A stretch of DNA of 64,000 nucleotides from Escherichia coli (GTDB lineage: Bacteria; Pseudomonadota; Gammaproteobacteria; Enterobacterales; Enterobacteriaceae). The first letter of the stretch is position 1, and every line of letters starts with the position of its first letter. Where the stretch lies: assembly GCF_044324785.1 (NCBI RefSeq), contig NZ_CP172127.1, one strand, 5' to 3'. The position numbers and the translations under genes are program-made. A model generated the notes under the pieces. That model did not search any database and had not been told where the DNA came from. It saw only the letters and a list, made by a program, of their open reading frames with translations. Positions 1,119 through 64,000 of the stretch are shown in pieces.

Positions 1119-2780
1119 TTACGCCGCAAGTAGTTCTTTCGCATTCGCCAGTGTGTTACGTGTGACTTCACTGCCACCAAGCAGGCGCGCCAGCTCTTGT
1201 AACCGCGCTTTTTTATCCAGGGATTGCATATGCGTTTCTGTCATCGCACCATCGGTTTCTTTGCTGACAAAATAGTGTTGATGACCACATCCCGCGACTT
1301 GTGGCAGGTGGGTAACACACATCACCTGAGTTGATTCGCCGAGTTGACGCAGCAGTTTGCCAACAACTGCCGCTGTTGGGCCGCTAATCCCTACATCCAC
1401 TTCATCAAAAATCAGTGCCGGGGTTTCCATTTTACGCGCCGTGATGACCTGAATTGCCAGTGCGATGCGTGACAATTCACCACCGGATGCGACTTTGGCA
1501 ATAGGCTGCATTGGCTGACCTGGGTTGGTGGTCACCCGAAACTCAATACGATCAGCGCCGTCAGCGCCCAGGTGATGCTCGTCAAATTTAACATCAATCG
1601 TAAACTGCCCATGCGGCATAGAGAGTGCATGCATACTGTCGGTGATCAGCTGTGCAAGTTCTTCTGCATAGTGCTGGCGTTGCAGGTGTAATGCGTGCGC
1701 GGTTTCCAGTGCCTGCTGATGATGTTTCGTTACCGCCAGCGCGAGCGTTTCTTGTGAGTCGGCCTGATCGTCCAGTTGCTGCTGTTCTTCCAGTAGCGAC
1801 TGGTAATACTGTGGCAATGCCTCAGGGCTGACGTGATGTTTACGTGCCAGCGAAATCTGTTTTGAGATGCGCTGTTCAAGTTCAAACAGTCGGTTGGGAT
1901 CGAGATCCAGACGATCGCAGTAGTGGCGCAGTTCATCGCTGGCTTCAGCAATCTGGATGGTAGCTTCTTCCAGCATATCAAGTACGCCGGACAGTTTGCT
2001 GTCCATGCCAATCAATTCGCTCACCAGTTGTTTAGCCGTGTAAAGCTGACTTTGCAGGTTTGCGTCTTCACCGTCGGCCATTACTGCCAATGCATTCTGG
2101 CTGGTAGTCAGCAATTGACCGCTGTTCGCCAGACGTTTGTACTCTTCGTCGATTTGCTCAAACTCTCCGGGCTGCGGATTAAATTCGTTAAGTTCTTTTA
2201 ATTGGTATTGCAGCAGTTCCGCACGGGCGGCGCGTTCCTGACTTAACTGTTGATGATGCGCGAGGTCACGGCAGCTTTGATGCCACAACTGATAACGTGC
2301 GGTCATTTCCTGGAGCAGAGAGGTTTCATTGGCATAGCCATCAAGCAGGAATTTTTGGTGCTCGGGTTTGGTGAGTAACTGATGGGCGTGCTGACCATGG
2401 ATCTGAATCAACAACTGGCCCAGTTCGCGAAGTTGTGACAGAGGAACAGCTGTACCGTTGATAAAACCTCGTGAGCGACCATCGCTACTGATTACGCGAC
2501 GAAGCAAACATTCATGACCGTCTTCAAGCTGGTTTTCTTCCAGCCAGCGCAGGGCCGCTGGCGTATCTTTCAGAGAAAAACGGGCGCACAGGTCGGCACG
2601 AGCAGCGCCGGTACGCACCATGTCGGCTTCAGCGCGACCACCGAGACAAAGGCCGAGGGCATCTATTGCAATAGATTTACCCGCGCCGGTCTCGCCAGTT
2701 ATTACGGTCATGCCGCTATGAAAATCAATCTCAAGCTCACGAACGATAGCAAAGTTGCTGATGGTCAGTTGTGCCAACAT
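1119..2780 (-). CDS. recN: DNA repair protein RecN
   Basis: 553 aa, Walker [12 protein letters not shown]-like coiled coil; LexA boxes upstream. Confidence 0.95.
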
Positions 2781-16740: not shown

Positions 16741-16776
16741 AATAAAAAAGGCCCCCCGATTTGGGAGGCCTTATTG
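16741..16776 (-). promoter_or_regulatory. pheA transcription attenuator (terminator hairpin between pheL and pheA)
   Basis: Minus strand reads CAATAAGGCCTCCCAAATCGGGGGGCCTTTTTTATT. Confidence 0.85.
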
Positions 16777-16818
16777 TTCGTCTTCGCATTCTGTTTCACA
16801 CGACGAAACGCCTCCCAT

Positions 16819-16866
16819 TCAGGGGAAGGTAAAAAAGAATGCGAAGAAAAACGGTGTGTGTTTCAT
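16819..16866 (-). CDS. pheL: pheA leader peptide (15 aa, seven Phe codons)
   Basis: Minus strand ATGAAACACACACCGTTTTTCTTCGCATTCTTTTTTACCTTCCCCTGA = [15 protein letters not shown]. Confidence 0.9.
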   Translation of the reverse strand: [15 protein letters not shown]

Positions 16867-16920
16867 GTTTGTTTCCTTAAGTGACTTCAGTACAGTACCC
16901 GTACTGTTTTCACGCTGTCA

Positions 16921-20162: not shown

Positions 20163-20224
20163 CCTAAAGAATCAAGACGATCCGGTACGCGTGATTTTCT
20201 TTTCACATTAATCTGGTCAATAAC

Positions 20225-20253
20225 CTTGAATAATTGAGGGATGACCTCATTTA
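20225..20253 (+). promoter_or_regulatory. Sigma-32 heat-shock promoter of clpB
   Basis: CTTGAAT, 13 nt spacer, CCTCATTTA. Confidence 0.7.
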
Positions 20254-20291
20254 ATCTCCAGTAGCAACTTTGATCCGTTATGGGAGGAGTT

Positions 20292-22865
20292 ATGCGTCTG
20301 GATCGTCTTACTAATAAATTCCAGCTTGCTCTTGCCGATGCCCAATCACTTGCACTCGGGCACGACAACCAATTCATCGAACCACTTCATTTAATGAGCG
20401 CCCTGCTGAATCAGGAAGGGGGTTCGGTTAGTCCTTTATTAACATCCGCTGGCATTAATGCTGGCCAGTTGCGCACAGATATCAATCAGGCATTAAATCG
20501 TTTACCGCAGGTTGAAGGTACTGGTGGTGATGTCCAGCCATCACAGGATCTGGTGCGCGTTCTTAATCTTTGCGACAAGTTGGCGCAAAAACGTGGTGAT
20601 AACTTTATCTCGTCAGAACTGTTCGTTCTGGCGGCACTTGAGTCTCGCGGCACGCTGGCCGACATCCTGAAAGCAGCAGGGGCGACCACCGCCAACATTA
20701 CTCAAGCGATTGAACAAATGCGTGGAGGTGAAAGCGTGAACGATCAAGGTGCTGAAGACCAACGTCAGGCTTTGAAAAAATATACCATCGACCTTACCGA
20801 ACGAGCCGAACAAGGCAAACTCGATCCGGTGATTGGTCGTGATGAAGAAATTCGCCGTACCATTCAGGTGCTGCAACGTCGTACTAAAAATAACCCGGTA
20901 CTGATTGGTGAACCAGGCGTCGGTAAAACTGCCATCGTTGAAGGTCTGGCGCAGCGTATCATCAACGGCGAAGTGCCGGAAGGGTTGAAAGGCCGCCGCG
21001 TACTGGCGCTGGATATGGGCGCGCTGGTGGCTGGGGCGAAATATCGCGGTGAGTTTGAAGAACGTTTAAAAGGCGTACTTAACGATCTTGCTAAACAGGA
21101 AGGCAACGTCATCCTGTTTATCGACGAATTACATACCATGGTCGGCGCGGGTAAAGCCGATGGCGCAATGGACGCCGGAAACATGCTGAAACCGGCGCTG
21201 GCGCGTGGTGAATTGCACTGCGTAGGTGCCACGACGCTTGACGAATATCGCCAGTACATCGAAAAAGATGCTGCGCTGGAGCGTCGTTTCCAGAAAGTGT
21301 TTGTTGCCGAGCCTTCTGTTGAAGACACCATTGCTATTCTGCGTGGCTTAAAAGAACGTTACGAACTGCACCACCATGTGCAAATTACTGACCCGGCAAT
21401 TGTTGCAGCTGCGACGTTGTCTCATCGCTACATTGCTGACCGTCAGCTGCCGGATAAAGCCATCGACCTGATCGATGAAGCAGCATCCAGCATTCGTATG
21501 CAGATTGACTCAAAACCAGAAGAACTCGACCGACTCGATCGTCGTATCATCCAGCTCAAACTGGAACAACAGGCGTTAATGAAAGAGTCTGATGAAGCCA
21601 GTAAAAAACGCCTGGATATGCTCAACGAAGAACTGAGCGACAAAGAACGTCAGTACTCCGAGTTAGAAGAAGAGTGGAAAGCAGAGAAAGCATCGCTTTC
21701 TGGTACACAGACCATTAAAGCGGAACTGGAACAGGCGAAAATCGCTATTGAACAGGCTCGCCGTGTGGGTGACCTGGCGCGGATGTCTGAACTGCAATAC
21801 GGCAAAATCCCGGAACTGGAAAAGCAACTGGAAGCCGCAACGCAGCTCGAAGGCAAAACTATGCGTCTGTTGCGTAATAAAGTGACCGACGCCGAAATTG
21901 CTGAAGTGCTGGCGCGTTGGACGGGGATTCCGGTTTCTCGCATGATGGAAAGCGAGCGCGAAAAACTGCTGCGTATGGAGCAAGAGCTGCACCATCGCGT
22001 TATTGGTCAGAACGAAGCGGTTGATGCGGTATCTAACGCTATTCGTCGTAGCCGTGCGGGGCTGGCGGATCCAAATCGCCCGATTGGTTCATTCCTGTTC
22101 CTCGGCCCAACGGGTGTGGGGAAAACTGAGCTTTGTAAGGCGCTGGCGAACTTTATGTTTGATAGCGACGAGGCGATGGTCCGTATCGATATGTCCGAGT
22201 TTATGGAGAAACACTCGGTGTCTCGTCTGGTTGGTGCGCCTCCGGGATATGTCGGTTATGAAGAAGGTGGCTACCTGACCGAAGCTGTGCGTCGTCGTCC
22301 GTATTCCGTCATCCTGCTGGATGAAGTGGAAAAAGCGCATCCGGATGTCTTCAACATTCTGTTGCAGGTACTGGATGATGGGCGTCTGACTGACGGGCAG
22401 GGGAGAACGGTCGACTTCCGTAATACGGTTGTCATTATGACCTCTAACCTCGGTTCCGATTTGATTCAGGAACGCTTCGGTGAACTGGATTATGCGCACA
22501 TGAAAGAGCTGGTGCTCGGTGTGGTAAGCCATAACTTCCGTCCGGAATTCATTAACCGTATCGATGAAGTGGTGGTCTTCCATCCGCTGGGTGAACAGCA
22601 CATTGCGTCGATTGCGCAGATTCAGTTGAAACGTCTGTATAAACGTCTGGAAGAACGTGGTTATGAAATCCACATTTCTGACGAGGCGCTGAAACTGCTG
22701 AGCGAGAACGGTTACGATCCGGTCTATGGTGCACGTCCTCTGAAACGTGCTATCCAGCAGCAGATCGAAAACCCGCTGGCACAGCAAATACTGTCTGGTG
22801 AATTGGTTCCGGGTAAAGTTATTCGCCTGGAAGTTAATGAAGACCGGATTGTCGCCGTCCAGTAA
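20292..22865 (+). CDS. clpB: Disaggregase chaperone ClpB (857 aa); internal GTG at 20736 is the ClpB-80 start
   Basis: [18 protein letters not shown]...; two AAA+ modules with Walker A GEPGVGKT and GPTGVGKT; the ORF-track start at 20280 is 4 codons too long. Confidence 0.95.
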
Positions 22866-23307: not shown

Positions 23308-24849
<1,542 letters not shown>

Positions 24850-24934: not shown

Positions 24935-25010
24935 GTCCCCTTCGTCTAGAGGCCCAGGACACCGCCCTTTCACGGCGGTAACAGGGGTTCGAATCCCCTA
25001 GGGGACGCCA
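24935..25010 (+). tRNA. gltW: tRNA-Glu (UUC) in the 16S-23S spacer
   Basis: GTCCCCTTCGTCTAGAGGCCCAGGACACCGCCCTTTCACGGCGGTAACAGGGGTTCGAATCCCCTAGGGGACGCCA. Confidence 0.95.
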
Positions 25011-25194
25011 CTTGCTGGTTTGTGAGTGAAAGTCACCTGCCTTGATATCTCAAAACTCATCTTCGGGTGATGTTTGAGATATTTGCTCTTTAAAAATCTG
25101 GATCAAGCTGAAAATTGAAACACTGAACAACGAAAGTTGTTCGTGAGTCTCTCAAATTTTCGCAACTCTGAAGTGAAACATCTTCGGGTTGTGA

Positions 25195-28099
<2,905 letters not shown>

Positions 28100-28191: not shown

Positions 28192-28311
28192 TGCCTGGCG
28201 GCCGTAGCGCGGTGGTCCCACCTGACCCCATGCCGAACTCAGAAGTGAAACGCCGTAGCGCCGATGGTAGTGTGGGGTCTCCCCATGCGAGAGTAGGGAA
28301 CTGCCAGGCAT
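28192..28311 (+). rRNA. rrfG: 5S ribosomal RNA (rrnG operon)
   Basis: TGCCTGGCGGCCGTAGCGCGGTGG...GGGAACTGCCAGGCAT, 120 nt. Confidence 0.97.
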
Positions 28312-41479: not shown

Positions 41480-43833
<2,354 letters not shown>

Positions 43834-44121
43834 TTAATTTACTAAACACGGTTTGGTCAGCATAGCATCATGTTGTGCGAATAAACACCTGCTATTTTAA
43901 TATTTGTTACAGTTGCTAAACACGCTGACGCAGGGCGGCGAGAAAAAGAGAAGTTACTGGCTGGTGGAGGATTAGGTGGTGAAATAAAAAGGCCGTTGGG
44001 TTACTCTTCAGGCAGTTAAATGGGCATTTCTACACAGATAATGCGATGTTCAGATTCTGTAGACTTATAATGATAGATAATGATCCGTCTACAGCATGAC
44101 AAACAAAAACAGATGCGTTAC

Positions 44122-45490: not shown

Positions 45491-46446
45491 TGAAGCAACT
45501 TTGGTTTGCCATGTCATTAGTGACAGGTAGCCTGTTATTCTCTGCTAACGCCTCGGCCACTCCCGCGTCCGGGGCGTTATTACAGCAGATGAACCTGGCC
45601 AGTCAGTCACTGAATTACGAGCTGTCATTTATCAGCATCAATAAACAGGGTGTTGAGTCTCTGCGTTATCGACATGCACGCCTCGATAACCGTCCTCTTG
45701 CACAATTGTTGCAAATGGATGGCCCGCGCCGGGAAGTGGTACAGCGCGGCAATGAAATCAGCTATTTTGAACCGGGACTTGAACCGTTCACGCTTAATGG
45801 CGATTACATTGTTGATTCTCTGCCATCGCTCATCTATACCGATTTCAAACGCCTTTCTCCTTACTACGACTTTATCTCCGTCGGGCGCACGCGTATTGCT
45901 GATCGTCTTTGCGAAGTCATTCGCGTGGTTGCCCGAGATGGTACACGCTACAGCTACATCGTGTGGATGGACACCGAATCGAAATTACCGATGCGGGTTG
46001 ATCTCCTTGATCGCGATGGTGAAACGCTGGAACAATTTCGCGTGATTGCTTTTAACGTCAATCAGGATATCGGCAGCAGTATGCAGACGCTGGCGAAGGC
46101 AAATTTGCCGCCGTTGCTTTCTGTTCCTGTAGGTGAAAAAGCTAAATTCAGCTGGACGCCAACCTGGTTGCCACAGGGTTTTAGCGAAGTTTCCAGTAGT
46201 CGACGTCCGCTACCGACGATGGACAACATGCCTATCGAATCACGTCTCTATTCCGACGGATTATTCAGCTTCTCGGTAAACGTTAACCGCGCTACGCCAT
46301 CGAGCACCGATCAGATGTTGCGCACCGGGCGCAGAACCGTCAGTACAAGCGTACGTGATAACGCCGAAATCACCATTGTCGGTGAACTGCCGCCGCAAAC
46401 GGCGAAACGCATTGCCGAGAATATTAAGTTCGGGGCAGCGCAATGA
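45490..46446 (+). CDS. rseB: Sigma-E regulatory protein RseB
   Basis: 318 aa with signal peptide; stop/start overlap with rseA. Confidence 0.95.
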   Translation: MKQLWFAMSLVTGSLLFSANASATPASGALLQQMNLASQSLNYELSFISINKQGVESLRYRHARLDNRPLAQLLQMDGPRREVVQRGNEISYFEPGLEPFTLNGDYIVDSLPSLIYTDFKRLSPYYDFISVGRTRIADRLCEVIRVVARDGTRYSYIVWMDTESKLPMRVDLLDRDGETLEQFRVIAFNVNQDIGSSMQTLAKANLPPLLSVPVGEKAKFSWTPTWLPQGFSEVSSSRRPLPTMDNMPIESRLYSDGLFSFSVNVNRATPSSTDQMLRTGRRTVSTSVRDNAEITIVGELPPQTAKRIAENIKFGAAQ

Positions 46447-46922
46447 TCAAAGAGTGGGCTACCGTCGTCTCCTGGGAAAACGGGCAGGCGCTGGTTAGTT
46501 GTGATGTTAAAGCCTCATGCAGCAGCTGCGCTTCACGCGCCGGTTGCGGTAGCCGCGTGTTGAATAAACTTGGCCCGCAAACCACGCATACCATTGTCGT
46601 ACCCTGTGATGAGCCGTTAGTGCCGGGGCAAAAAGTGGAATTGGGGATCGCCGAAGGCAGCCTGCTTAGCTCCGCATTACTGGTTTATATGTCGCCGCTG
46701 GTGGGATTATTTCTCATCGCTTCGCTATTTCAGCTACTCTTTGCTTCAGATATTGCAGCATTATGCGGTGCGATTCTCGGTGGCGTTGGTGGATTCCTGA
46801 TTGCACGTGGCTGCTCTCGAAAGTTTGCTGCCCGGTCTGAATGGCAACCGATCATCTTAAGCGTGGCATTGCCGCCTGGCCTTGTGCGATTTGAAACATC
46901 TTCGGAAGACGCGAGCCAGTGA
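46443..46922 (+). CDS. rseC: Sigma-E regulatory protein RseC
   Basis: 159 aa, membrane protein with Cys-rich N-terminus. Confidence 0.9.
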   Translation: MIKEWATVVSWENGQALVSCDVKASCSSCASRAGCGSRVLNKLGPQTTHTIVVPCDEPLVPGQKVELGIAEGSLLSSALLVYMSPLVGLFLIASLFQLLFASDIAALCGAILGGVGGFLIARGCSRKFAARSEWQPIILSVALPPGLVRFETSSEDASQ

Positions 46923-47119
46923 TTTCACTGGCTTTGTTGCATTTTGCATAACAAATGCGAGGACGTTTCCAGATACCACAATCCATACGGTATGAACATT
47001 TCCTCGCCTCAATGTTGTAGTGTAGAATGCGGCGTTTCTATTAATACAGACGTTAAGCTCAGAACAGCGACTTCTAAAAGCCTGGTTAACCGGGCATTAA
47101 GGCACAATAATCATACTTT

Positions 47120-48919
<1,800 letters not shown>

Positions 48920-49909: not shown

Positions 49910-50151
49910 TAGCCCATCTTCGTTCACGTTGTCGCCGTTATGGCGACAACGTGAATTATTTATGAGATAAATCTCCCGTGGCTAACGACATCCCCCGTCG
50001 TTGTGTATAGAATATTCCCCCGAAGTTTAAGGTTGGCACCTCCAGGTTGCCACGGCACACGAAACAGCGTTGGTCCCCATATACCGGTAAACTGAAACTG
50101 CAGCGAAGCAGTTAGCAGAGCCATGTATATCAGGTCTGTTTCGTGTGCTGA

Positions 50152-51764
<1,613 letters not shown>

Positions 51765-53627: not shown

Positions 53628-53653
53628 AAATAATACCGTTCTCTTTATAAAGT

Positions 53654-53692
53654 AAAACCCCCGAACTGGTAAGGAACGGGGGTTTTACTTTT
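53654..53692. terminator. acpS terminator, bidirectional
   Basis: AAAACCCCCGAACTGGTAAGGAACGGGGGTTTTACTTTTT. Confidence 0.8.
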
Positions 53693-54048
53693 TAACTTTA
53701 ATTTTGTGCAGCACACGATTCCAACGGAAATGATTATGGATCAATTTCGTTATCCTGTACAAGCAACTTGCAATCTCTGACATAAAAAACGCGAGCCTTT
53801 ACGAAGAAATCGACATTGATGAAAAGATTAACGTGACCGCTTTTTGATAAGTACATTAAAATCGGTTTCGTTATTGGCAATTTTGCTGTGCTTTACACCA
53901 TGCCACTGAATTCCCCCATTGAAACGAGTGGTGTCGTCAAAGCTCTGGTGTGGAGTGCAGCACTCGATTCCAATAACTCGCACGTTCAGTTTTGGGGAGA
54001 TGTAAGGGCTAATCTGAACGGCTGCATTCCTTGTTTAAGGAAAAACGA

Positions 54049-55695: not shown

Positions 55696-56331
55696 TTGGC
55701 AACTCACGAGCGTCGTGTGGTGTTTTTTGACTTAGATGGAACATTGCATCAGCAGGATATGTTCGGCAGTTTTCTGCGCTATTTACTGCGTCGCCAACCG
55801 CTGAATGCGTTACTTGTCCTGCCGTTGTTGCCGATTATAGCCATTGCGTTATTGATAAAAGGTCGTGCGGCACGCTGGCCGATGAGTCTGCTTCTGTGGG
55901 GATGCACTTTTGGTCACAATGAAGCGCGTTTGCAGGCGTTGCAGGCCGATTTCGTACGCTGGTTTCGTGACAATGTTACCGCCTTTCCGCTGGTTCAGGA
56001 GCGATTAACCACCTACCTGTTAAGTTCCGATGCTGATATCTGGTTGATTACCGGCTCTCCGCAGCCGCTGGTTGAAGCGGTTTATTTCGATACGCCCTGG
56101 CTGCCGCGGGTTAATCTTATCGCCAGTCAGTTTCAGCGTGGCTATGGTGGTTGGGTATTGACGATGCGTTGCCTCGGGCATGAGAAGGTCGCGCAACTGG
56201 AGCGTAAAATCGGCACGCCACTGCGGTTGTACAGTGGCTATAGCGACAGTAATCAGGACAACCCGCTGCTTTATTTCTGTCAGCATCGCTGGCGAGTAAC
56301 CCCGCGCGGTGAACTCCAGCAACTGGAATAG
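55696..56331 (+). CDS. pgpC: Phosphatidylglycerophosphatase C (HAD family)
   Basis: 211 aa, HAD motif FFDLDGTL. Confidence 0.9.
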   Translation: MATHERRVVFFDLDGTLHQQDMFGSFLRYLLRRQPLNALLVLPLLPIIAIALLIKGRAARWPMSLLLWGCTFGHNEARLQALQADFVRWFRDNVTAFPLVQERLTTYLLSSDADIWLITGSPQPLVEAVYFDTPWLPRVNLIASQFQRGYGGWVLTMRCLGHEKVAQLERKIGTPLRLYSGYSDSNQDNPLLYFCQHRWRVTPRGELQQLE

Positions 56332-56343
56332 AGTAAAGCATAG

Positions 56344-58445
<2,102 letters not shown>

Positions 58446-58610
58446 TTAGTTAATTCTCTGTGTCGTGCGCGTCCCAGCTTGAAAAAACGTAATAATAGTG
58501 AAAGGTTTACTCATAAATGAGCGGCATTTTGCGTAAACCTGCGCCAGTTGGCAACTTATTACAGCCATTGGCGGCACGCGTTGCTAATTCTCGATGGTGA
58601 TTTTATTTCC

Positions 58611-58626
58611 ACGCAAACGGTTTCGT
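58611..58626 (+). promoter_or_regulatory. PurR operator in the purL promoter
   Basis: ACGCAAACGGTTTCGT matches the PurR box consensus. Confidence 0.8.
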
Positions 58627-58702
58627 CAGCGCATCAGATTCTTTATAATGACGCCCGTTTCCCCCCCTTGGGTACACCGAAAGCTTAGAAGACGAGAGAC
58701 TT

Positions 58703-61700
58703 ATGATGGAAATTCTGCGTGGTTCGCCTGCATTGTCGGCATTCCGAATCAACAAACTGCTGGCACGTTTTCAGGCTGCCAGGCTCCCGGTTCACACTAT
58801 TTACGCCGAGTATGTCCATTTTGCTGACCTCAATGCGCCGTTAAACGATGATGAGCACGCACAACTTGAACGCCTGCTGAAATATGGCCCGGCACTCGCC
58901 AGCCACGCCCCGCAAGGCAAACTCCTGCTGGTGACCCCGCGTCCTGGCACCATCTCTCCCTGGTCTTCGAAAGCGACCGATATTGCCCATAACTGCGGGC
59001 TGCAACAGGTAAACCGTCTTGAGCGCGGCGTGGCTTACTATATAGAAGCCGGTACGCTGACCAATGAACAATGGCAGCAGGTTACCGCTGAACTGCACGA
59101 CCGCATGATGGAAACGGTCTTTTTTGCTTTAGATGATGCAGAGCAGCTGTTTGCACACCATCAACCGACTCCGGTCACCAGCGTTGATTTGCTGGGGCAG
59201 GGCCGTCAGGCGCTAATCGACGCTAACCTGCGTCTTGGCCTGGCACTGGCGGAAGATGAAATTGACTATTTGCAGGATGCTTTCACAAAGCTTGGTCGTA
59301 ACCCGAACGACATCGAACTGTATATGTTTGCCCAGGCGAACTCCGAGCACTGCCGCCACAAAATTTTTAACGCCGACTGGGTTATCGATGGTGAACAGCA
59401 GCCGAAATCGCTGTTTAAGATGATCAAAAACACCTTCGAAACCACGCCGGATCACGTTCTCTCTGCTTATAAAGATAACGCCGCCGTAATGGAAGGTTCT
59501 GAAGTGGGCCGCTACTTTGCTGACCACGAAACGGGCCGCTACGATTTCCATCAGGAACCGGCGCATATTCTGATGAAAGTCGAAACTCACAACCACCCGA
59601 CTGCGATTTCTCCGTGGCCGGGCGCGGCGACCGGTTCCGGCGGTGAAATCCGCGATGAAGGTGCCACCGGACGTGGCGCAAAGCCGAAAGCTGGTTTGGT
59701 TGGTTTCTCCGTTTCCAACCTGCGAATTCCTGGCTTCGAACAGCCGTGGGAAGAAGATTTCGGTAAGCCTGAGCGCATTGTCACCGCGCTGGACATCATG
59801 ACCGAAGGCCCGCTGGGCGGCGCGGCATTTAACAACGAATTTGGTCGTCCGGCACTGAACGGCTACTTCCGTACTTATGAAGAAAAAGTGAACAGCCACA
59901 ATGGCGAAGAGCTGCGCGGTTATCACAAACCGATCATGCTGGCGGGTGGGATCGGCAACATTCGCGCCGATCACGTACAAAAAGGCGAGATCAACGTTGG
60001 TGCGAAGCTGGTCGTTCTCGGCGGCCCGGCAATGAACATCGGTCTTGGCGGCGGCGCGGCGTCTTCCATGGCATCTGGTCAGTCTGATGCCGACCTCGAC
60101 TTTGCTTCCGTACAGCGCGACAACCCGGAGATGGAGCGTCGCTGCCAGGAAGTGATCGACCGTTGCTGGCAGCTTGGTGATGCCAACCCAATCCTGTTTA
60201 TCCACGACGTTGGCGCAGGCGGTCTTTCTAACGCCATGCCGGAACTGGTGAGCGACGGCGGGCGCGGCGGTAAATTTGAACTGCGCGATATCCTGAGCGA
60301 CGAACCGGGCATGAGCCCGCTGGAAATCTGGTGTAACGAATCCCAGGAACGCTACGTGCTGGCGGTTGCTGCCGATCAGTTACCGCTGTTTGACGAACTG
60401 TGTAAGCGTGAACGAGCGCCATACGCGGTGATTGGCGAGGCCACCGAAGAATTACATCTTTCTCTGCACGATCGTCATTTTGATAATCAACCCATCGATC
60501 TGCCGCTGGACGTGCTACTCGGCAAAACGCCGAAGATGACTCGCGATGTACAAACGCTGAAAGCGAAAGGCGACGCGCTGGCCCGTGAAGGGATCACCAT
60601 CGCTGACGCGGTGAAACGCGTGCTGCATCTGCCGACCGTGGCGGAGAAAACTTTCCTGGTGACCATTGGTGACCGCAGCGTAACCGGCATGGTAGCGCGC
60701 GATCAGATGGTGGGTCCGTGGCAGGTGCCGGTCGCTAACTGCGCGGTCACTACCGCCAGCCTCGATAGCTACTACGGCGAAGCGATGGCAATTGGCGAGC
60801 GTGCGCCGGTTGCGCTGCTGGATTTCGCCGCCTCTGCCCGTCTGGCGGTCGGTGAAGCGTTAACCAATATTGCCGCAACACAGATTGGCGATATCAAACG
60901 CATTAAACTTTCCGCGAACTGGATGGCAGCGGCAGGTCATCCAGGCGAAGATGCGGGCCTGTATGAAGCCGTTAAAGCTGTGGGCGAAGAGCTTTGTCCG
61001 GCGCTGGGCCTGACGATCCCGGTGGGTAAAGACTCTATGTCGATGAAAACCCGCTGGCAGGAAGGTAACGAAGAGCGCGAAATGACGTCGCCGCTGTCGC
61101 TGGTGATTTCTGCATTTGCCCGTGTGGAAGATGTGCGTCACACCATCACGCCGCAGCTTTCTACCGAAGATAACGCATTACTGCTGATTGATCTGGGCAA
61201 AGGCAATAACGCGCTGGGCGCAACGGCGCTGGCGCAGGTTTATCGTCAGCTTGGCGACAAACCGGCAGATGTACGCGACGTCGCGCAACTGAAAGGTTTC
61301 TATGACGCGGTTCAGGCGCTGGTAGCACAGCGTAAGCTGCTCGCGTACCACGACCGCTCTGATGGCGGCCTGCTGGTAACGCTGGCGGAAATGGCCTTTG
61401 CTGGTCATTGCGGCATTGACGCGGATATCGCCACTCTGGGTGACGATCGCCTGGCGGCGTTGTTTAACGAAGAACTGGGTGCGGTGATTCAGGTTCGAGC
61501 CGCTGACCGTGAAGCCGTTGAAGTGGTACTGGCACAGCATGGGCTTGCTGATTGCGTCCATTATGTTGGCCAGGCGGTTTCCGGTGACCGTTTTGTGATT
61601 ACCGCCAACGGGCAGACTGTATTCAGCGAAAGCCGCACTACGTTGCGTGTCTGGTGGGCAGAAACTACCTGGCAGATGCAGCGCCTGCGTGACAACCCGG

Positions 61701-62590
61701 AGTGTGCCGATCAGGAACATCAGGCGAAATCCAACGACGCCGATCCGGGCCTGAATGTGAAACTGTCGTTCGATATTAACGAAGATGTAGCAGCTCCGTT
61801 TATCGCTACTGGCGCGCGCCCGAAAGTTGCCGTACTGCGTGAGCAAGGCGTGAACTCGCATGTTGAAATGGCGGCAGCTTTCCACCGTGCGGGCTTTGAT
61901 GCTATCGACGTGCATATGAGCGACCTGCTGACTGGACGCACGGGACTGGAGGATTTCCACGCCCTGGTCGCGTGCGGTGGTTTCTCCTACGGTGATGTGC
62001 TGGGTGCCGGTGAAGGTTGGGCGAAGTCTATCCTGTTCAATGACCGTGTACGCGATGAGTTTGCAACCTTCTTCCACCGTCCGCAAACGCTGGCGCTGGG
62101 GGTATGTAACGGTTGCCAGATGATGTCTAATCTGCGTGAACTGATCCCAGGTAGTGAGTTGTGGCCACGTTTTGTGCGCAATACCTCCGATCGCTTTGAA
62201 GCGCGTTTCAGCCTGGTTGAAGTGACCCAAAGCCCATCGCTGCTATTGCAGGGGATGGTGGGCTCACAGATGCCGATTGCTGTGTCTCACGGTGAAGGGC
62301 GCGTGGAAGTGCGCGATGCGGCGCATCTGGCGGAGCTGGAAAGTAAAGGGCTGGTGGCACTGCGCTATGTCGATAACTTCGGTAAAGTCACTGAAACCTA
62401 CCCGGCTAACCCGAACGGTTCTCCGAATGGTATTACGGCGGTTACGACTGAAAGTGGTCGAGTCACCATTATGATGCCGCACCCGGAACGTGTTTTCCGT
62501 ACTGTCAGCAACTCCTGGCATCCGGAAAACTGGGGCGAGGATGGCCCATGGATGCGCATTTTCCGCAATGCGCGTAAGCAGTTGGGGTAA
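58703..62590 (+). CDS. purL: Phosphoribosylformylglycinamidine synthase (FGAM synthase, large single-chain form)
   Basis: 1295 aa [26 protein letters not shown]...; C-terminal glutamine amidotransferase domain. Confidence 0.97.
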
Positions 62591-62647
62591 GCCGTCAGTC
62601 CATTGGTTTTACAGCCGGATGAGGCATTAAGCACCAACCACTATTAT

Positions 62648-62674
62648 AAGCTCCCAACTTCGGGAGCTTTTTTG
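62648..62674 (+). terminator. purL terminator
   Basis: AAGCTCCCAACTTCGGGAGCTTTTTTG. Confidence 0.85.
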
Positions 62675-62788
62675 TGTCTGTAAATCACGACAATGGGTGG
62701 TTTACCGTGTCGCTTTCTGGCGACACTTAACTGATTGATTTTAATAGTATCTAATAAGTTTATCTTAAGTTGTCTCTTTTTAGCGACA
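62675..62788 (+). promoter_or_regulatory. Three GlrR (sigma-54 enhancer-binding protein) sites upstream of glmY
   Basis: TGTCTGTAAATCACGACA (62675-62692), TGTCGCTTTCTGGCGACA (62708-62725), TGTCTCTTTTTAGCGACA (62771-62788): all TGTC-N10-GACA. Confidence 0.75.
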
Positions 62789-62877
62789 CAGTGGCTGATT
62801 TACATTCAAATAGCGAAGAAGCCATAAATCCCTCAAAGCAGCGTATAATCAGTACGTTACCAAACTATTTTCTTTAT

Positions 62878-62900
62878 TGGCACAGTTACTGCATAATAGT
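62878..62900 (+). promoter_or_regulatory. glmY sigma-54 promoter (-24/-12) overlapping a sigma-70 -10 element
   Basis: TGGCACAGTTACTGCATAAT: TGGCAC-N5-CTGCA sigma-54 core with CATAAT -10 superimposed. Confidence 0.8.
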
Positions 62901-62904
62901 AACC

Positions 62905-63088
62905 AGTGGCTCATTCACCGACTTATGTCAGCCCCTTCGGGACGTGCTACATAAAATTCGAATGACGCACAACAAGGTGCCTGCCGTCCAACTTCTGATA
63001 TCAGCGTAGCTATATCAACCATCGGGCGAAACGTCGAGTTAGGCACCGCCTTATTCCATAACAAAGCCGGGTAATTCCCGGCTTTGTT
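62905..63088 (+). ncRNA. glmY: Small regulatory RNA GlmY (GlmZ decoy controlling glmS)
   Basis: Starts about 12 nt downstream of the sigma-54 -12 element at AGTGGCTCATTCACC; ends at terminator AAAGCCGGGTAATTCCCGGCTTTGTTGT; position between purL and glrK. Confidence 0.8.
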
Positions 63089-63146
63089 GTATCTGAACTT
63101 CCCCTCGGTTAGCATCAGGCTATTCGCGTCTGACGAGAGTAACACC

Positions 63147-64000
63147 TTGAAACGCTGGCCCGTTTTTCCCCGCTCATTACGACAACTGGTAATGCTGGCA
63201 TTTTTGCTGATTCTGCTGCCCCTGTTGGTGCTGGCATGGCAAGCCTGGCAAAGCCTGAATGCGCTTAGCGATCAGGCGGCGCTGGTTAACCGCACTACGC
63301 TTATTGATGCCCGGCGTAGTGAAGCGATGACCAACGCGGCGCTGGAGATGGAGCGTAGTTACCGTCAGTATTGCGTGCTGGACGACCCAACCCTGGCGAA
63401 GGTTTATCAAAGCCAGCGCAAGCGTTACAGCGAAATGCTCGATGCCCACGCAGGCGTGCTGCCGGACGATAAACTCTACCAGGCATTACGTCAGGATTTG
63501 AACAATCTGGCTCAACTTCAGTGTAACAACAGCGGTCCCGATGCTGCCGCCGCCGCACGTCTTGAAGCCTTTGCCAGTGCCAATACCGAAATGGTACAGG
63601 CCACGCGCACAGTGGTGTTCTCTCGTGGGCAGCAGCTTCAGCGTGAAATTGCCGAACGCGGGCAATATTTTGGTTGGCAATCGCTGGTGCTATTTCTGGT
63701 GAGTCTGGTGATGGTGCTACTTTTCACGCGGATGATTATCGGTCCGGTGAAAAATATTGAACGGATGATCAACCGGCTGGGGGAAGGGCGTTCTCTGGGC
63801 AATAGCGTTTCGTTCAGTGGACCGAGTGAGTTACGCTCGGTTGGGCAACGTATTCTTTGGTTAAGTGAGCGCCTGTCATGGCTGGAATCCCAACGTCATC
63901 AATTCTTAAGACATTTATCTCATGAATTAAAAACGCCGCTGGCGAGTATGCGCGAGGGCACTGAATTACTGGCTGACCAGGTTGTCGGGCCGCTTACGCC
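63147..64000 (+). CDS. glrK: Sensor histidine kinase GlrK (YfhK), N-terminal part; gene continues beyond the window
   Basis: Open frame from TTG at 63147 (KRWPVFPRSLRQLVMLAFLLILLPLLVLAW...) through HAMP and HisKA (LSHELKTPL) to the window end; absent from the ORF track because no stop is reached; an alternative ATG start lies near 63192. Confidence 0.8.
   Translation, partial: MKRWPVFPRSLRQLVMLAFLLILLPLLVLAWQAWQSLNALSDQAALVNRTTLIDARRSEAMTNAALEMERSYRQYCVLDDPTLAKVYQSQRKRYSEMLDAHAGVLPDDKLYQALRQDLNNLAQLQCNNSGPDAAAAARLEAFASANTEMVQATRTVVFSRGQQLQREIAERGQYFGWQSLVLFLVSLVMVLLFTRMIIGPVKNIERMINRLGEGRSLGNSVSFSGPSELRSVGQRILWLSERLSWLESQRHQFLRHLSHELKTPLASMREGTELLADQVVGPLT

What the first reader, a model, noticed from the sequence alone, without database searches (positions are those of the whole stretch)
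62675..63090. GlmY small RNA with overlapping sigma-54 and sigma-70 promoters and three upstream TGTC-N10-GACA sites
Between purL and glrK the sequence shows three evenly organised TGTC-N10-GACA palindromes, a textbook sigma-54 core TGGCAC-N5-CTGCA whose -12 region is superimposed on a CATAAT -10 hexamer, a structured transcript of about 184 nt, and a GC-rich hairpin terminator. This matches the glmY locus, which is activated by the GlrK/GlrR two-component system encoded immediately downstream. An AT-rich, IHF-like stretch near 62847-62860 lies between the sites and the promoter, consistent with DNA looping. The ORF track instead shows a 79-aa ORF (62770-63009) across this region, which I consider non-coding.
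Basis: partly seen in the sequence, partly recalled or inferred. Interest (0 to 1): 0.5.

Follow-up and report, generated by a model that had tools for sequence, protein, structure and literature searches.

The report
Known glmY small RNA gene and promoter

Summary
The observation and the interpretation both hold.

- **RNA identity:** Window 62905-63052 (+) matches Rfam GlmY (RF00128) at 147 bits against a gathering score of 33. The annotated 184-nt K-12 glmY maps to 62905-63088 with one substitution.
- **Synteny:** purL, glmY, glrK, as in K-12.
- **GlrR sites:** The three TGTC-N10-GACA palindromes (62675, 62708, 62771) are the only exact matches in 64 kb. Such clustering never arose in 4000 simulations.
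- **Promoter:** TGGCAC-N5-CTGCA (62878-62893) overlaps CATAAT (62892-62897) and lies 27 nt upstream of the RNA 5' end. The core is at a fixed position in 91 of 92 enterobacterial loci.
- **Structure:** Supported by covariation. 95.9% of cells pair, against 30-44% in slid controls.
- **79-aa ORF:** Not conserved and matches no family, so it is non-coding.

- Palindrome spacing is 33 and 63 bp, not even.
- A second IHF-like site at 62728-62740 (-) was missed. It is probably the published distal site that was shown to be essential.
- The sigma-70 promoter has no convincing -35. Its status rests on K-12 experiments on identical sequence.
- glrR lies outside the window.

All of this was published between 2008 and 2011. 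Novelty: already known. Interest: low.

The parts
58703..62590 (+). purL (phosphoribosylformylglycinamidine synthase), the upstream flanking gene
   Evidence: NCBIfam NF003672, 2274 bits against a cut-off of 783. Same position as in K-12.
62648..62675 (+). purL intrinsic terminator (8-bp stem, 6-nt loop, T-run). The T-run ends at the first base of ABS1.
   Evidence: Terminator scan.
62675..62692 (.). GlrR/QseF activator binding site 1 (ABS1), TGTCTGTAAATCACGACA, starting at -230
   Evidence: Exact palindrome. Identical in K-12. The literature reports ABS1 as dispensable and less conserved.
62708..62725 (.). GlrR/QseF binding site 2 (ABS2), TGTCGCTTTCTGGCGACA, starting at -197
   Evidence: An ABS2/ABS3-like pair 62-64 bp apart occurs in 83 of 89 distinct orthologous promoters. 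Reported as essential in K-12.
62728..62740 (-). Distal IHF-like site (probably 'IHF site 1' of the literature), AATCAATCAGTTA.
   Evidence: Perfect WATCARNNNNTTR. At the same offset from ABS2, the consensus is perfect in 68 and within 1 mismatch in 82 of 83 orthologous promoters. PMC3045617 reports two IHF sites flanking ABS3, with the distal one essential for sigma-54 activity. I could not see the figure, so equating this site with 'site 1' is inferred.
62771..62788 (.). GlrR/QseF binding site 3 (ABS3), TGTCTCTTTTTAGCGACA, starting at -134
   Evidence: Reported as essential in K-12.
62847..62859 (+).
   Evidence: Perfect consensus. At -54 to -60 it is perfect in 38 and within 1 mismatch in 67 of 89 orthologous promoters.
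62878..62893 (+). Sigma-54 core promoter TGGCAC-N5-CTGCA (GG at -26/-25, GC at -14/-13 relative to A62905)
   Evidence: Found at a fixed position in 91 of 92 loci.
62892..62897 (+). Sigma-70 -10 hexamer CATAAT (-13 to -8), overlapping the -12 element of the sigma-54 promoter
   Evidence: Sequence. CATAAT sits at this position in 53 of 91 loci and CATTAT in 24. The K-12 experiments are cited in PMC3045617. No good -35 element.
62905..63088 (+). glmY primary transcript, 184 nt
   Evidence: The K-12 b4441 annotation projected through alignment A1 gives 183/184 identity, with T62958 in place of A at nt 54. The 184-nt length is from PMC4152352.
62905..63052 (+). GlmY core, nt 1-148 (the processed, active form in the literature), with three stem-loops
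   Evidence: Rfam RF00128, 147.1 bits, E = 7.5e-34, full model 1-163. Covariation on 81 distinct sequences. The 148-nt active form is from PMC4152352.
63060..63088 (+). glmY intrinsic terminator: AACAAAGCCGGG, loop TAATT, CCCGGCTTTGTT
   Evidence: MFE fold. A stable hairpin follows the core in all 98 orthologous tails, with different stem sequences. The consensus scan missed it because the T-tract lies inside the extended stem.
63147..64000 (+). glrK (qseE) sensor kinase gene, TTG start, first 284 codons. It runs off the window.
   Evidence: 283/284 identical to K-12 GlrK. Same position in K-12 and in strain VCSW5.

Best explanation
The region is the glmY locus of an E. coli-lineage genome.

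Shown here from the sequence:
- A 184-nt small RNA gene (62905-63088) lies between purL and glrK.
- It has the conserved three-stem-loop GlmY core (nt 1-148), a short 9-nt linker with no complementarity to glmS, and an intrinsic terminator.
- Upstream are a sigma-54 core promoter, an overlapping CATAAT -10 hexamer, two IHF-consensus sites at -177 and -58, and three TGTC-N10-GACA palindromes at -230, -197 and -134.

Inferred from published K-12 work on sequence that is identical at every functional element:
- Phosphorylated GlrR (QseF), activated by the kinase GlrK (QseE), binds the palindromes.
- IHF bends the intervening DNA so that GlrR contacts sigma-54 RNA polymerase and drives open-complex formation.
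- A weak sigma-70 promoter using CATAAT starts at the same nucleotide and gives basal expression.
- The transcript is trimmed to 148 nt. It then acts as a decoy that sequesters the RNase E adaptor RapZ. This spares the homologous sRNA GlmZ, which base-pairs with and activates glmS mRNA when glucosamine-6-phosphate is scarce.
For: - Covariance model: Rfam GlmY at 147.1 bits against a gathering score of 33, full-length match.
- Annotation and synteny: 183/184 identity to annotated K-12 glmY, same synteny. GlrK is 283/284 identical. purL is confirmed. The locus is present in 5425 of 5426 complete E. coli genomes.
- Structure: 95.9% of cells paired against 30-44% in slid controls, 8 pairs with compensatory change, 0/500 shuffles reaching the covariation score. 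Fold z = -5.46.
- GlmY rather than GlmZ: the linker is 9 nt and reaches -5.1 kcal/mol with the glmS leader. GlmZ's 23-nt linker reaches -19.0 kcal/mol with 8 + 7 bp.
- Palindromes: the only 3 exact matches in the window, and their clustering was never seen in 4000 simulations.
- Promoter conservation: sigma-54 core in 91 of 92 loci. Both IHF sites are positionally conserved across genera.
- Sequence identity to K-12: no substitution relative to K-12 falls in any specified base of an ABS, an IHF core or the promoter.
- Mechanism from the literature: PMC3045617, PMC4152352, PMC6075780.
Against: Nothing contradicts this. The caveats are:
- The sigma-70 consensus scan finds no promoter here and the best -35 candidate matches 3 of 6. 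The sigma-70 component therefore rests on K-12 genetics, not on sequence.
- The sigma-54 and IHF motifs taken alone occur at chance frequency in the window. Their support comes from position and conservation.
- My orthologue set was collected with an exact 3' pattern, so helices 3, 4 and 6 are partly invariant by construction.
- glrR is outside the window.
- No transcript data exist for this strain.
- The strain is only 97.3% identical to K-12 locally. It carries 9 promoter-region substitutions, all in spacers or N positions.
Confidence: 0.97

Rival explanations
1. The RNA is the paralogue GlmZ (same Rfam clan), the base-pairing activator of glmS, rather than the decoy GlmY.
For: GlmY and GlmZ share fold and sequence: 101 identical positions in a 164-column pairwise alignment. 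A lower-scoring match to a family of the same clan overlapped the hit.
Against: - The best clan member is GlmY, at 147 bits.
- Synteny is purL/glrK, not aslA/hemY as for K-12 glmZ.
- The linker is 9 nt and has no glmS complementarity (-5.1 against -19.0 kcal/mol).
- K-12 glmZ has a sigma-70-only promoter without GlrR sites.
Confidence: 0.01
2. The 79-aa ORF (62770-63009, +) or the antisense 76-aa ORF (62915-63145, -) is a real protein-coding gene overlapping the sRNA locus.
For: - Both frames are open in the window and in K-12.
- 4 of the 7 substitutions relative to K-12 within the sense ORF are synonymous.
- The antisense frame stays open for 94 codons in a number of Escherichia and related loci.
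Against: - Neither ORF matches any NCBIfam family.
- The sense frame is cut to 57-67 codons in other Escherichia species and ranges from 13 to 146 codons across genera. The antisense frame ranges from 27 to 116.
- The sense ORF starts with TTG inside ABS3 without a Shine-Dalgarno sequence. Its first 45 codons lie upstream of the only known start site and downstream of the purL terminator.
- Conservation follows RNA pairing and protein-binding sites, not codons.
Confidence: 0.02
3. Only the sigma-54 promoter is real. The CATAAT overlap is a by-product of the sigma-54 -12 region (TGCAT) plus AT-rich sequence and has no sigma-70 function in this strain.
For: - The sigma-70 consensus scan finds nothing, and the -35 candidates match at most 3 of 6.
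- CATTAT or CATAAT occupies this position even in Yersinia and Serratia, where the literature detects no sigma-70 promoter.
Against: - In K-12, mutating this -10 abolishes the residual expression seen in glrR, ihf and IHF-site mutants, while the sigma-54 promoter stays intact (citing Reichenbach 2009).
- The window is identical to K-12 from -63 to +53.
- PMC6075780 describes the sigma-70 promoter as weak and responsible for basal expression.
Confidence: 0.04

Closest known systems
E. coli K-12 glmY (b4441; formerly sroF/tke1), Rfam RF00128
   Same: - Same position between purL and glrK.
- 183/184 nt identical.
- Same 5' end, terminator and fold.
- Same three GlrR sites, two IHF-like sites, sigma-54 core and CATAAT -10.
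   Different: - One substitution in an internal loop (nt 54, A to U).
- Nine substitutions in promoter spacers, six of them clustered at 62811-62841.
- None touches a specified base of a known site.
GlmZ (RF00083; K-12 b4456)
   Same: Homologous fold and sequence over the first two stem-loops and the core. Same Rfam clan, CL00011.
   Different: - GlmZ has a 23-nt linker that pairs with the glmS leader, which is absent here.
- It has a different genomic context.
- In E. coli it has a sigma-70-only promoter without GlrR or IHF sites.
glmY/glmZ promoters of Yersinia, Serratia and Pectobacterium (sigma-54 only)
   Same: Same sigma-54 core. Same ABS2/ABS3 pair 63 bp apart. Same distal and proximal IHF-like positions.
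   Different: - ABS3 lies 149-162 bp rather than 134 bp from the start site.
- The hexamer is mostly CATTAT rather than CATAAT.
- The literature finds no sigma-70 promoter there.
rpoE P2, the other QseF/GlrR-dependent sigma-54 promoter of E. coli
   Same: Same activator. Relaxed TGT-N12-ACA sites cluster upstream of rpoE in this same window.
   Different: It drives a protein-coding sigma factor gene, and there is no exact TGTC-N10-GACA site there. I did not locate its sigma-54 core.

Membership tests
GlmY sRNA (Rfam RF00128) | Covariance-model score above the curated gathering threshold over the full model | tested here: met
   147.1 bits against 33, model positions 1-163 of 163, E = 7.5e-34.
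GlmY sRNA (Rfam RF00128) | Conserved secondary structure supported by compensatory changes | tested here: met
   The Rfam structure projected on 81 distinct orthologues gives 95.9% paired cells against 30-44% when slid, and 8 pairs with changes on both sides. Caveat: the 3' helices are partly fixed by the search pattern used.
GlmY sRNA (Rfam RF00128) | Conserved synteny immediately upstream of glrK/qseE (in E. coli, between purL and glrK) | tested here: met
   purL at 58703-62590. GlrK N-terminus 283/284 identical to K-12. K-12 and VCSW5 gene maps.
GlmY sRNA (Rfam RF00128) | No complementarity to the glmS leader, which distinguishes it from GlmZ | tested here: met
   The 9-nt linker reaches -5.1 kcal/mol. 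GlmZ's 23-nt linker reaches -19.0 kcal/mol with 8 + 7 bp.
GlmY sRNA (Rfam RF00128) | 184-nt primary transcript processed to an active form of about 148 nt that binds RapZ | not testable with these tools
   The lengths fit: the annotation maps to 184 nt and the Rfam core ends at nt 148. Processing and RapZ binding need experiments.
GlrR/QseF-activated sigma-54 promoter | -24 GG and -12 GC elements with canonical spacing at the right distance from the start site | tested here: met
   TGGCAC-N5-CTGCA at 62878-62893, 27 nt upstream of the RNA 5' end. Found in 91 of 92 loci.
GlrR/QseF-activated sigma-54 promoter | Three TGTC-N10-GACA activator sites more than 100 bp upstream | tested here: met
   Exact sites starting at -230, -197 and -134. 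Chance clustering excluded.
GlrR/QseF-activated sigma-54 promoter | IHF site or sites between the activator sites and the promoter | tested here: met
   Two perfect WATCARNNNNTTR matches at 62728-62740 (-) and 62847-62859 (+), positionally conserved across genera. Actual binding was not tested.
GlrR/QseF-activated sigma-54 promoter | Cognate two-component system GlrK/GlrR encoded downstream | tested here: inconclusive
   The glrK 5' part is present. glrR lies beyond the window end and is expected only from synteny in K-12 and VCSW5.
GlrR/QseF-activated sigma-54 promoter | Transcription depends on rpoN, glrR and ihf | not testable with these tools
   Shown for K-12 in PMC3045617. The window is identical to K-12 from -63 to +53 and at all specified site bases.
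Overlapping sigma-70 promoter | -10 hexamer at -12 to -7 or nearby | tested here: met
   CATAAT at -13 to -8, matching TATAAT at 5 of 6 positions.
Overlapping sigma-70 promoter | -35 hexamer 16-18 bp upstream | tested here: not met
   The consensus scan found no promoter in 62500-63250. The candidates TTTTCT, TTTCTT and TTCTTT match TTGACA at no more than 3 of 6 positions (read). This fits the literature's description of the promoter as weak.

The most novel reading that the evidence does not exclude
The least ordinary reading my evidence leaves open concerns this lineage's promoter allele. It has nine spacer substitutions relative to K-12, six of them packed into 31 bp between ABS3 and the proximal IHF site (62811-62841). 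These could change DNA bendability or helical phasing enough to shift the balance between GlrR/sigma-54-driven and sigma-70 basal glmY expression. Alternatively, one of the two overlapping ORFs could encode a small protein. Neither has positive support. The substitutions lie in a spacer that varies freely among Escherichia species, and no insertion or deletion changes the phasing.
Probability: 0.03. Interest if true: 0.25.

Novelty: already known. Interest (0 to 1): 0.06.

Why it matters
It matters only as a correct annotation. [quoted passage not shown] The one practical point is that RefSeq records annotated by NCBI's PGAP pipeline list no feature here, and mechanical ORF lists show spurious 79-aa and 76-aa ORFs. 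Automated scans will therefore keep flagging this locus as unannotated. Nothing here opens a new question.

Tried and rejected
- **Consensus promoter/terminator scan:** it found neither the sigma-70 promoter nor the glmY terminator. The first miss reflects a genuinely weak -35. The second is a tool artefact, because the T-tract is inside the extended stem. I used the MFE fold instead.
- **Full-length RNA duplex folding of GlmY and GlmZ against the glmS leader:** it gave physically meaningless structures with energies no better than shuffles. I discarded it and replaced it with the linker-only test.
- **First-order Markov simulation for clustering:** it timed out. I replaced it with a composition-matched model and an analytic estimate.
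- **Crude T-run metric for terminator conservation:** uninformative (27 of 98), because folding 70-nt tails merges downstream structure. Only the finding that a stable hairpin is always present is used.
- **Literature not available:** Reichenbach 2009 and Klein 2016 are not held, and PMC3045617 has no supplementary files held. The exact published coordinates of the -35 element, the two IHF sites and rpoE P2 could therefore not be checked against mine.
- **RNAalifold on the MAFFT alignment:** it recovered only the invariant helices. The variable apical stems were mis-aligned, so I projected the Rfam structure instead.
- **Considered and rejected:** GlmZ identity; protein-coding ORFs; and the 62811-62841 substitution cluster as a regulatory site, since it is a freely varying spacer in which the window mostly carries the outgroup state.

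Full report
**1. What is in the sequence**

The interval lies between a 1295-aa ORF (58703-62590, +) and an ORF that starts with TTG at 63147 and runs off the window.
- The first ORF is purL (NCBIfam NF003672, 2274 bits against a cut-off of 783).
- The second is the N-terminal 284 residues of the sensor kinase GlrK/QseE, 283/284 identical to K-12 GlrK.
- K-12 MG1655 has the same order, purL, glmY (b4441, 184-nt ncRNA), glrK, qseG, glrR.
- The 556-bp intergenic region is found in 5425 of 5426 complete E. coli genomes.

**2. The RNA**

A scan against all Rfam families gives one hit in the region: GlmY_tke1 (RF00128) at 62905-63052 (+). It scores 147.1 bits against a gathering score of 33, with E = 7.5e-34, and covers the full model.

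Aligning the intergenic region to K-12 projects the annotated gene onto 62905-63088, with one difference. T62958 replaces A at GlmY nt 54, in an internal loop.

The 186-nt stretch folds to -66.7 kcal/mol, with z = -5.46 and 0 of 200 shuffles as stable. It ends in the hairpin AACAAAGCCGGG-TAATT-CCCGGCTTTGTT at 63060-63088.

The literature gives a 184-nt primary transcript that is trimmed at the 3' end to the active 148-nt form (PMC4152352). The Rfam match ends exactly at nt 148.

**3. Independent comparative test**

One pattern scan of the species-representative genome collection returned 95 GlmY-bearing stretches. They span Escherichia, Citrobacter, Klebsiella, Kluyvera, Enterobacter, Serratia, Yersinia, Pectobacterium, Dickeya, Brenneria and others.

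I projected the Rfam consensus structure onto a MAFFT alignment of 81 distinct cores. The results were:
- 95.9% of cells form standard pairs, against 30-44% when partners are slid by 1-3 columns.
- 8 of 38 pairs show changes on both sides, for example AU/UA at 41:40 and CG/AU at 42:35.
- No shuffle out of 500 reaches the covariation score.

The caveat is that the scan pattern fixed much of the 3' part, so helices 3, 4 and 6 are partly invariant by construction. The informative covariation is in helices 2, 5 and 6.

All 98 orthologous tails carry a stable hairpin after the core, with different stem sequences.

**4. GlmY or GlmZ?**

Both belong to Rfam clan CL00011. Three results point to GlmY:
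- The better-scoring family is GlmY.
- The context is purL/glrK rather than aslA/hemY.
- The single-stranded linker between the core and the terminator is only 9 nt (UUAUUCCAU). It reaches -5.1 kcal/mol with the 70 nt upstream of the glmS start codon. K-12 GlmZ's 23-nt linker forms the bipartite 8 + 7 bp duplex at -19.0 kcal/mol.

The RNA is therefore the non-pairing decoy type.

**5. The promoter**

*Palindromes.* TGTC-N10-GACA occurs exactly three times in 64 kb, at 62675, 62708 and 62771.
- Three matches somewhere in the window is not rare: 6 of 100 shuffles reach that count.
- Three within 114 bp is rare: 0 of 4000 simulations, with an expectation of about 1.5e-6.
- Relative to A62905 the sites start at -230, -197 and -134. 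The spacings are 33 and 63 bp, or about 3 and 6 helical turns. They are in phase but not evenly spaced.

*Sigma-54 core.* TGGCAC-N5-CTGCA lies at 62878-62893. The motif alone is at chance frequency in the window (5 found, 3.1 expected). Its support comes from elsewhere: it sits 27 nt upstream of the RNA 5' end and is present at that position in 91 of 92 loci.

*-10 hexamer.* CATAAT at 62892-62897 overlaps the GC of the -12 element. The same hexamer is found in 53 of 91 loci, and CATTAT in 24, mostly Yersinia and Serratia.

*-35 element.* The sigma-70 consensus scan finds no promoter, and the best -35 candidate matches 3 of 6. The sigma-70 component cannot be established from sequence alone.

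*IHF sites.* The consensus WATCARNNNNTTR occurs five times in the window, which is chance level (4.4 expected). Two of the five lie here, at 62728-62740 (-) and 62847-62859 (+), one on each side of ABS3. Both are conserved in position across genera:
- The distal site is perfect in 68 and within one mismatch in 82 of 83 promoters.
- The proximal site is perfect in 38 and within one mismatch in 67 of 89.

**6. What the literature says about this architecture**

PMC3045617 (Gopel et al. 2011), citing Reichenbach et al. 2009, reports the following for E. coli K-12 glmY:
- GlrR binds three TGTC-N10-GACA motifs more than 100 bp upstream.
- The CATAAT -10 overlaps the -12 element.
- Two IHF-like sites flank ABS3.
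- Mutating the distal IHF site, or deleting ihfA, ihfB or glrR, abolishes sigma-54 activity and leaves sigma-70 activity untouched.
- ABS2 and ABS3 are essential, and ABS1 is dispensable.

PMC6075780 calls the sigma-70 promoter weak and basal.

The window differs from K-12 at nine promoter positions: 62704, 62733, 62747, 62811, 62816, 62819, 62822, 62829 and 62841.
- None lies in a specified base of any site. Position 62733 is an N position of the distal IHF core.
- The sequence is identical to K-12 from -63 to +53.

The K-12 experiments therefore transfer by inference. I could not view the paper's figures or supplements or the 2009 paper, so equating my two IHF matches with the published sites 1 and 2 is inferred from the text's description 'flanking ABS3'.

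**7. The ORFs**

- The 79-aa ORF (62770-63009) and the antisense 76-aa ORF (62915-63145) match no NCBIfam family.
- The sense frame shrinks to 57-67 codons in other Escherichia species and ranges from 13 to 146 codons across genera. The antisense frame ranges from 27 to 116.
- The sense ORF begins with TTG inside ABS3 and has no Shine-Dalgarno sequence. Most of it lies upstream of the only known start site and downstream of the purL terminator.
- In an alignment of Escherichia promoters, conservation forms islands at the ABS, IHF and promoter elements, separated by variable spacers. There is no codon periodicity.

**8. Source**

Over 6.7 kb the window is 97.3% identical to K-12, and at most 95.4% identical to the cryptic Escherichia species. 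No complete E. coli genome exceeds 98.3% over 8 kb. The source is an E. coli-lineage genome that is not closely represented among the complete assemblies, but the locus is orthologous and ordinary.

**9. Verdict**

- The palindromes are unevenly spaced.
- A second IHF site was missed, and it is probably the experimentally essential one.
- The sigma-70 promoter has a weak or absent -35.
- glrR is outside the window.

The locus and its mechanism have been described in detail since 2008-2011. Novelty is 'already known' and interest is low.

Noticed in passing
window 43503-43922 (upstream of rpoE, whose ORF starts at about 44199, +): Four matches to the relaxed QseF/GlrR consensus TGT-N12-ACA cluster upstream of rpoE, at 43503, 43641, 43831 and 43905. 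Together with the three at glmY, 7 of the 17 such sites in the 64-kb window lie at the two published QseF targets (rpoE P2 is mentioned in PMC6075780). I did not find a TGG-N9-TGC sigma-54 core there, and the primary paper was not available.
   Followed up: partly
window 62591-63146, and RefSeq records H1-H20: RefSeq records annotated by NCBI's PGAP pipeline list no feature under the glmY region ('none'; only purL and qseE). K-12 MG1655 annotates glmY. This is an annotation gap, not a biological difference.
   Followed up: yes
window 62811-62841: Six of the 16 substitutions relative to K-12 in the intergenic region fall within 31 bp of the spacer between ABS3 and the proximal IHF site. The allele is shared with strain VCSW5. 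At most of these positions the window matches the other Escherichia species, so K-12 looks derived. The spacer varies freely among species.
   Followed up: yes
window 56000-64000: No complete E. coli genome out of 5426 reaches 99% identity over this 8 kb. The best is 98.3%. The source lineage is therefore not closely represented among complete assemblies, or this segment is mosaic.
   Followed up: partly
window 62915-63145 (-): The 76-aa ORF antisense to glmY stays open (94 codons) in the window, K-12 and a number of other Escherichia and related loci, but shrinks to 27-50 codons in 26 loci. It matches no family. The open frame is probably a side effect of RNA-level constraint.
   Followed up: partly
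L047 (CACSKA010000009.1, labelled Chryseobacterium sp. 18061), 1689-1836 (-): A contig labelled Chryseobacterium carries a typical enterobacterial glmY with the Citrobacter/Enterobacter-type promoter. It comes from the same isolate series as 'Citrobacter sp. 18056' (L080). A mislabelled or contaminated assembly is likely.
   Followed up: no
L046 (Candidatus Symbiopectobacterium sp. 'North America'): The 3' GlmY pattern is present, but the sigma-54 core and the conserved 5' GCTCATTCA anchor are missing. This may be a decaying glmY in a symbiont genome. The other Symbiopectobacterium locus (L062) is intact.
   Followed up: no
L049 and L050 (Brenneria sp. hezel4-2-4, scaffolds 14 and 15): Two scaffolds of one assembly each carry a glmY. 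The promoter features are the same and the core sequences are identical. This is either a duplication or an assembly artefact.
   Followed up: no
window 62503-62520 (+), inside the purL 3' end: A one-mismatch GlrR-like palindrome (TGTCAGCAACTCCTGGCA) lies 172 bp upstream of ABS1. One-mismatch sites are at chance frequency in the window (18 found, 22.5 expected).
   Followed up: yes
window 16742-53725: Other Rfam hits in the window:
- An rRNA operon, comprising 16S (23308-24849), tRNA-Glu (24935-25010), StyR-44 (25088-25187), 23S (25195-28099) and 5S (28194-28309).
- Phe leader (16742-16867, -).
- RyfD (20173-20311, +).
- AsrC, antisense to rseC (46407-47238, -).
- rncO (50022-50236, +).
- ohsC (53649-53725, -).

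All are expected for this E. coli chromosomal region.
   Followed up: no
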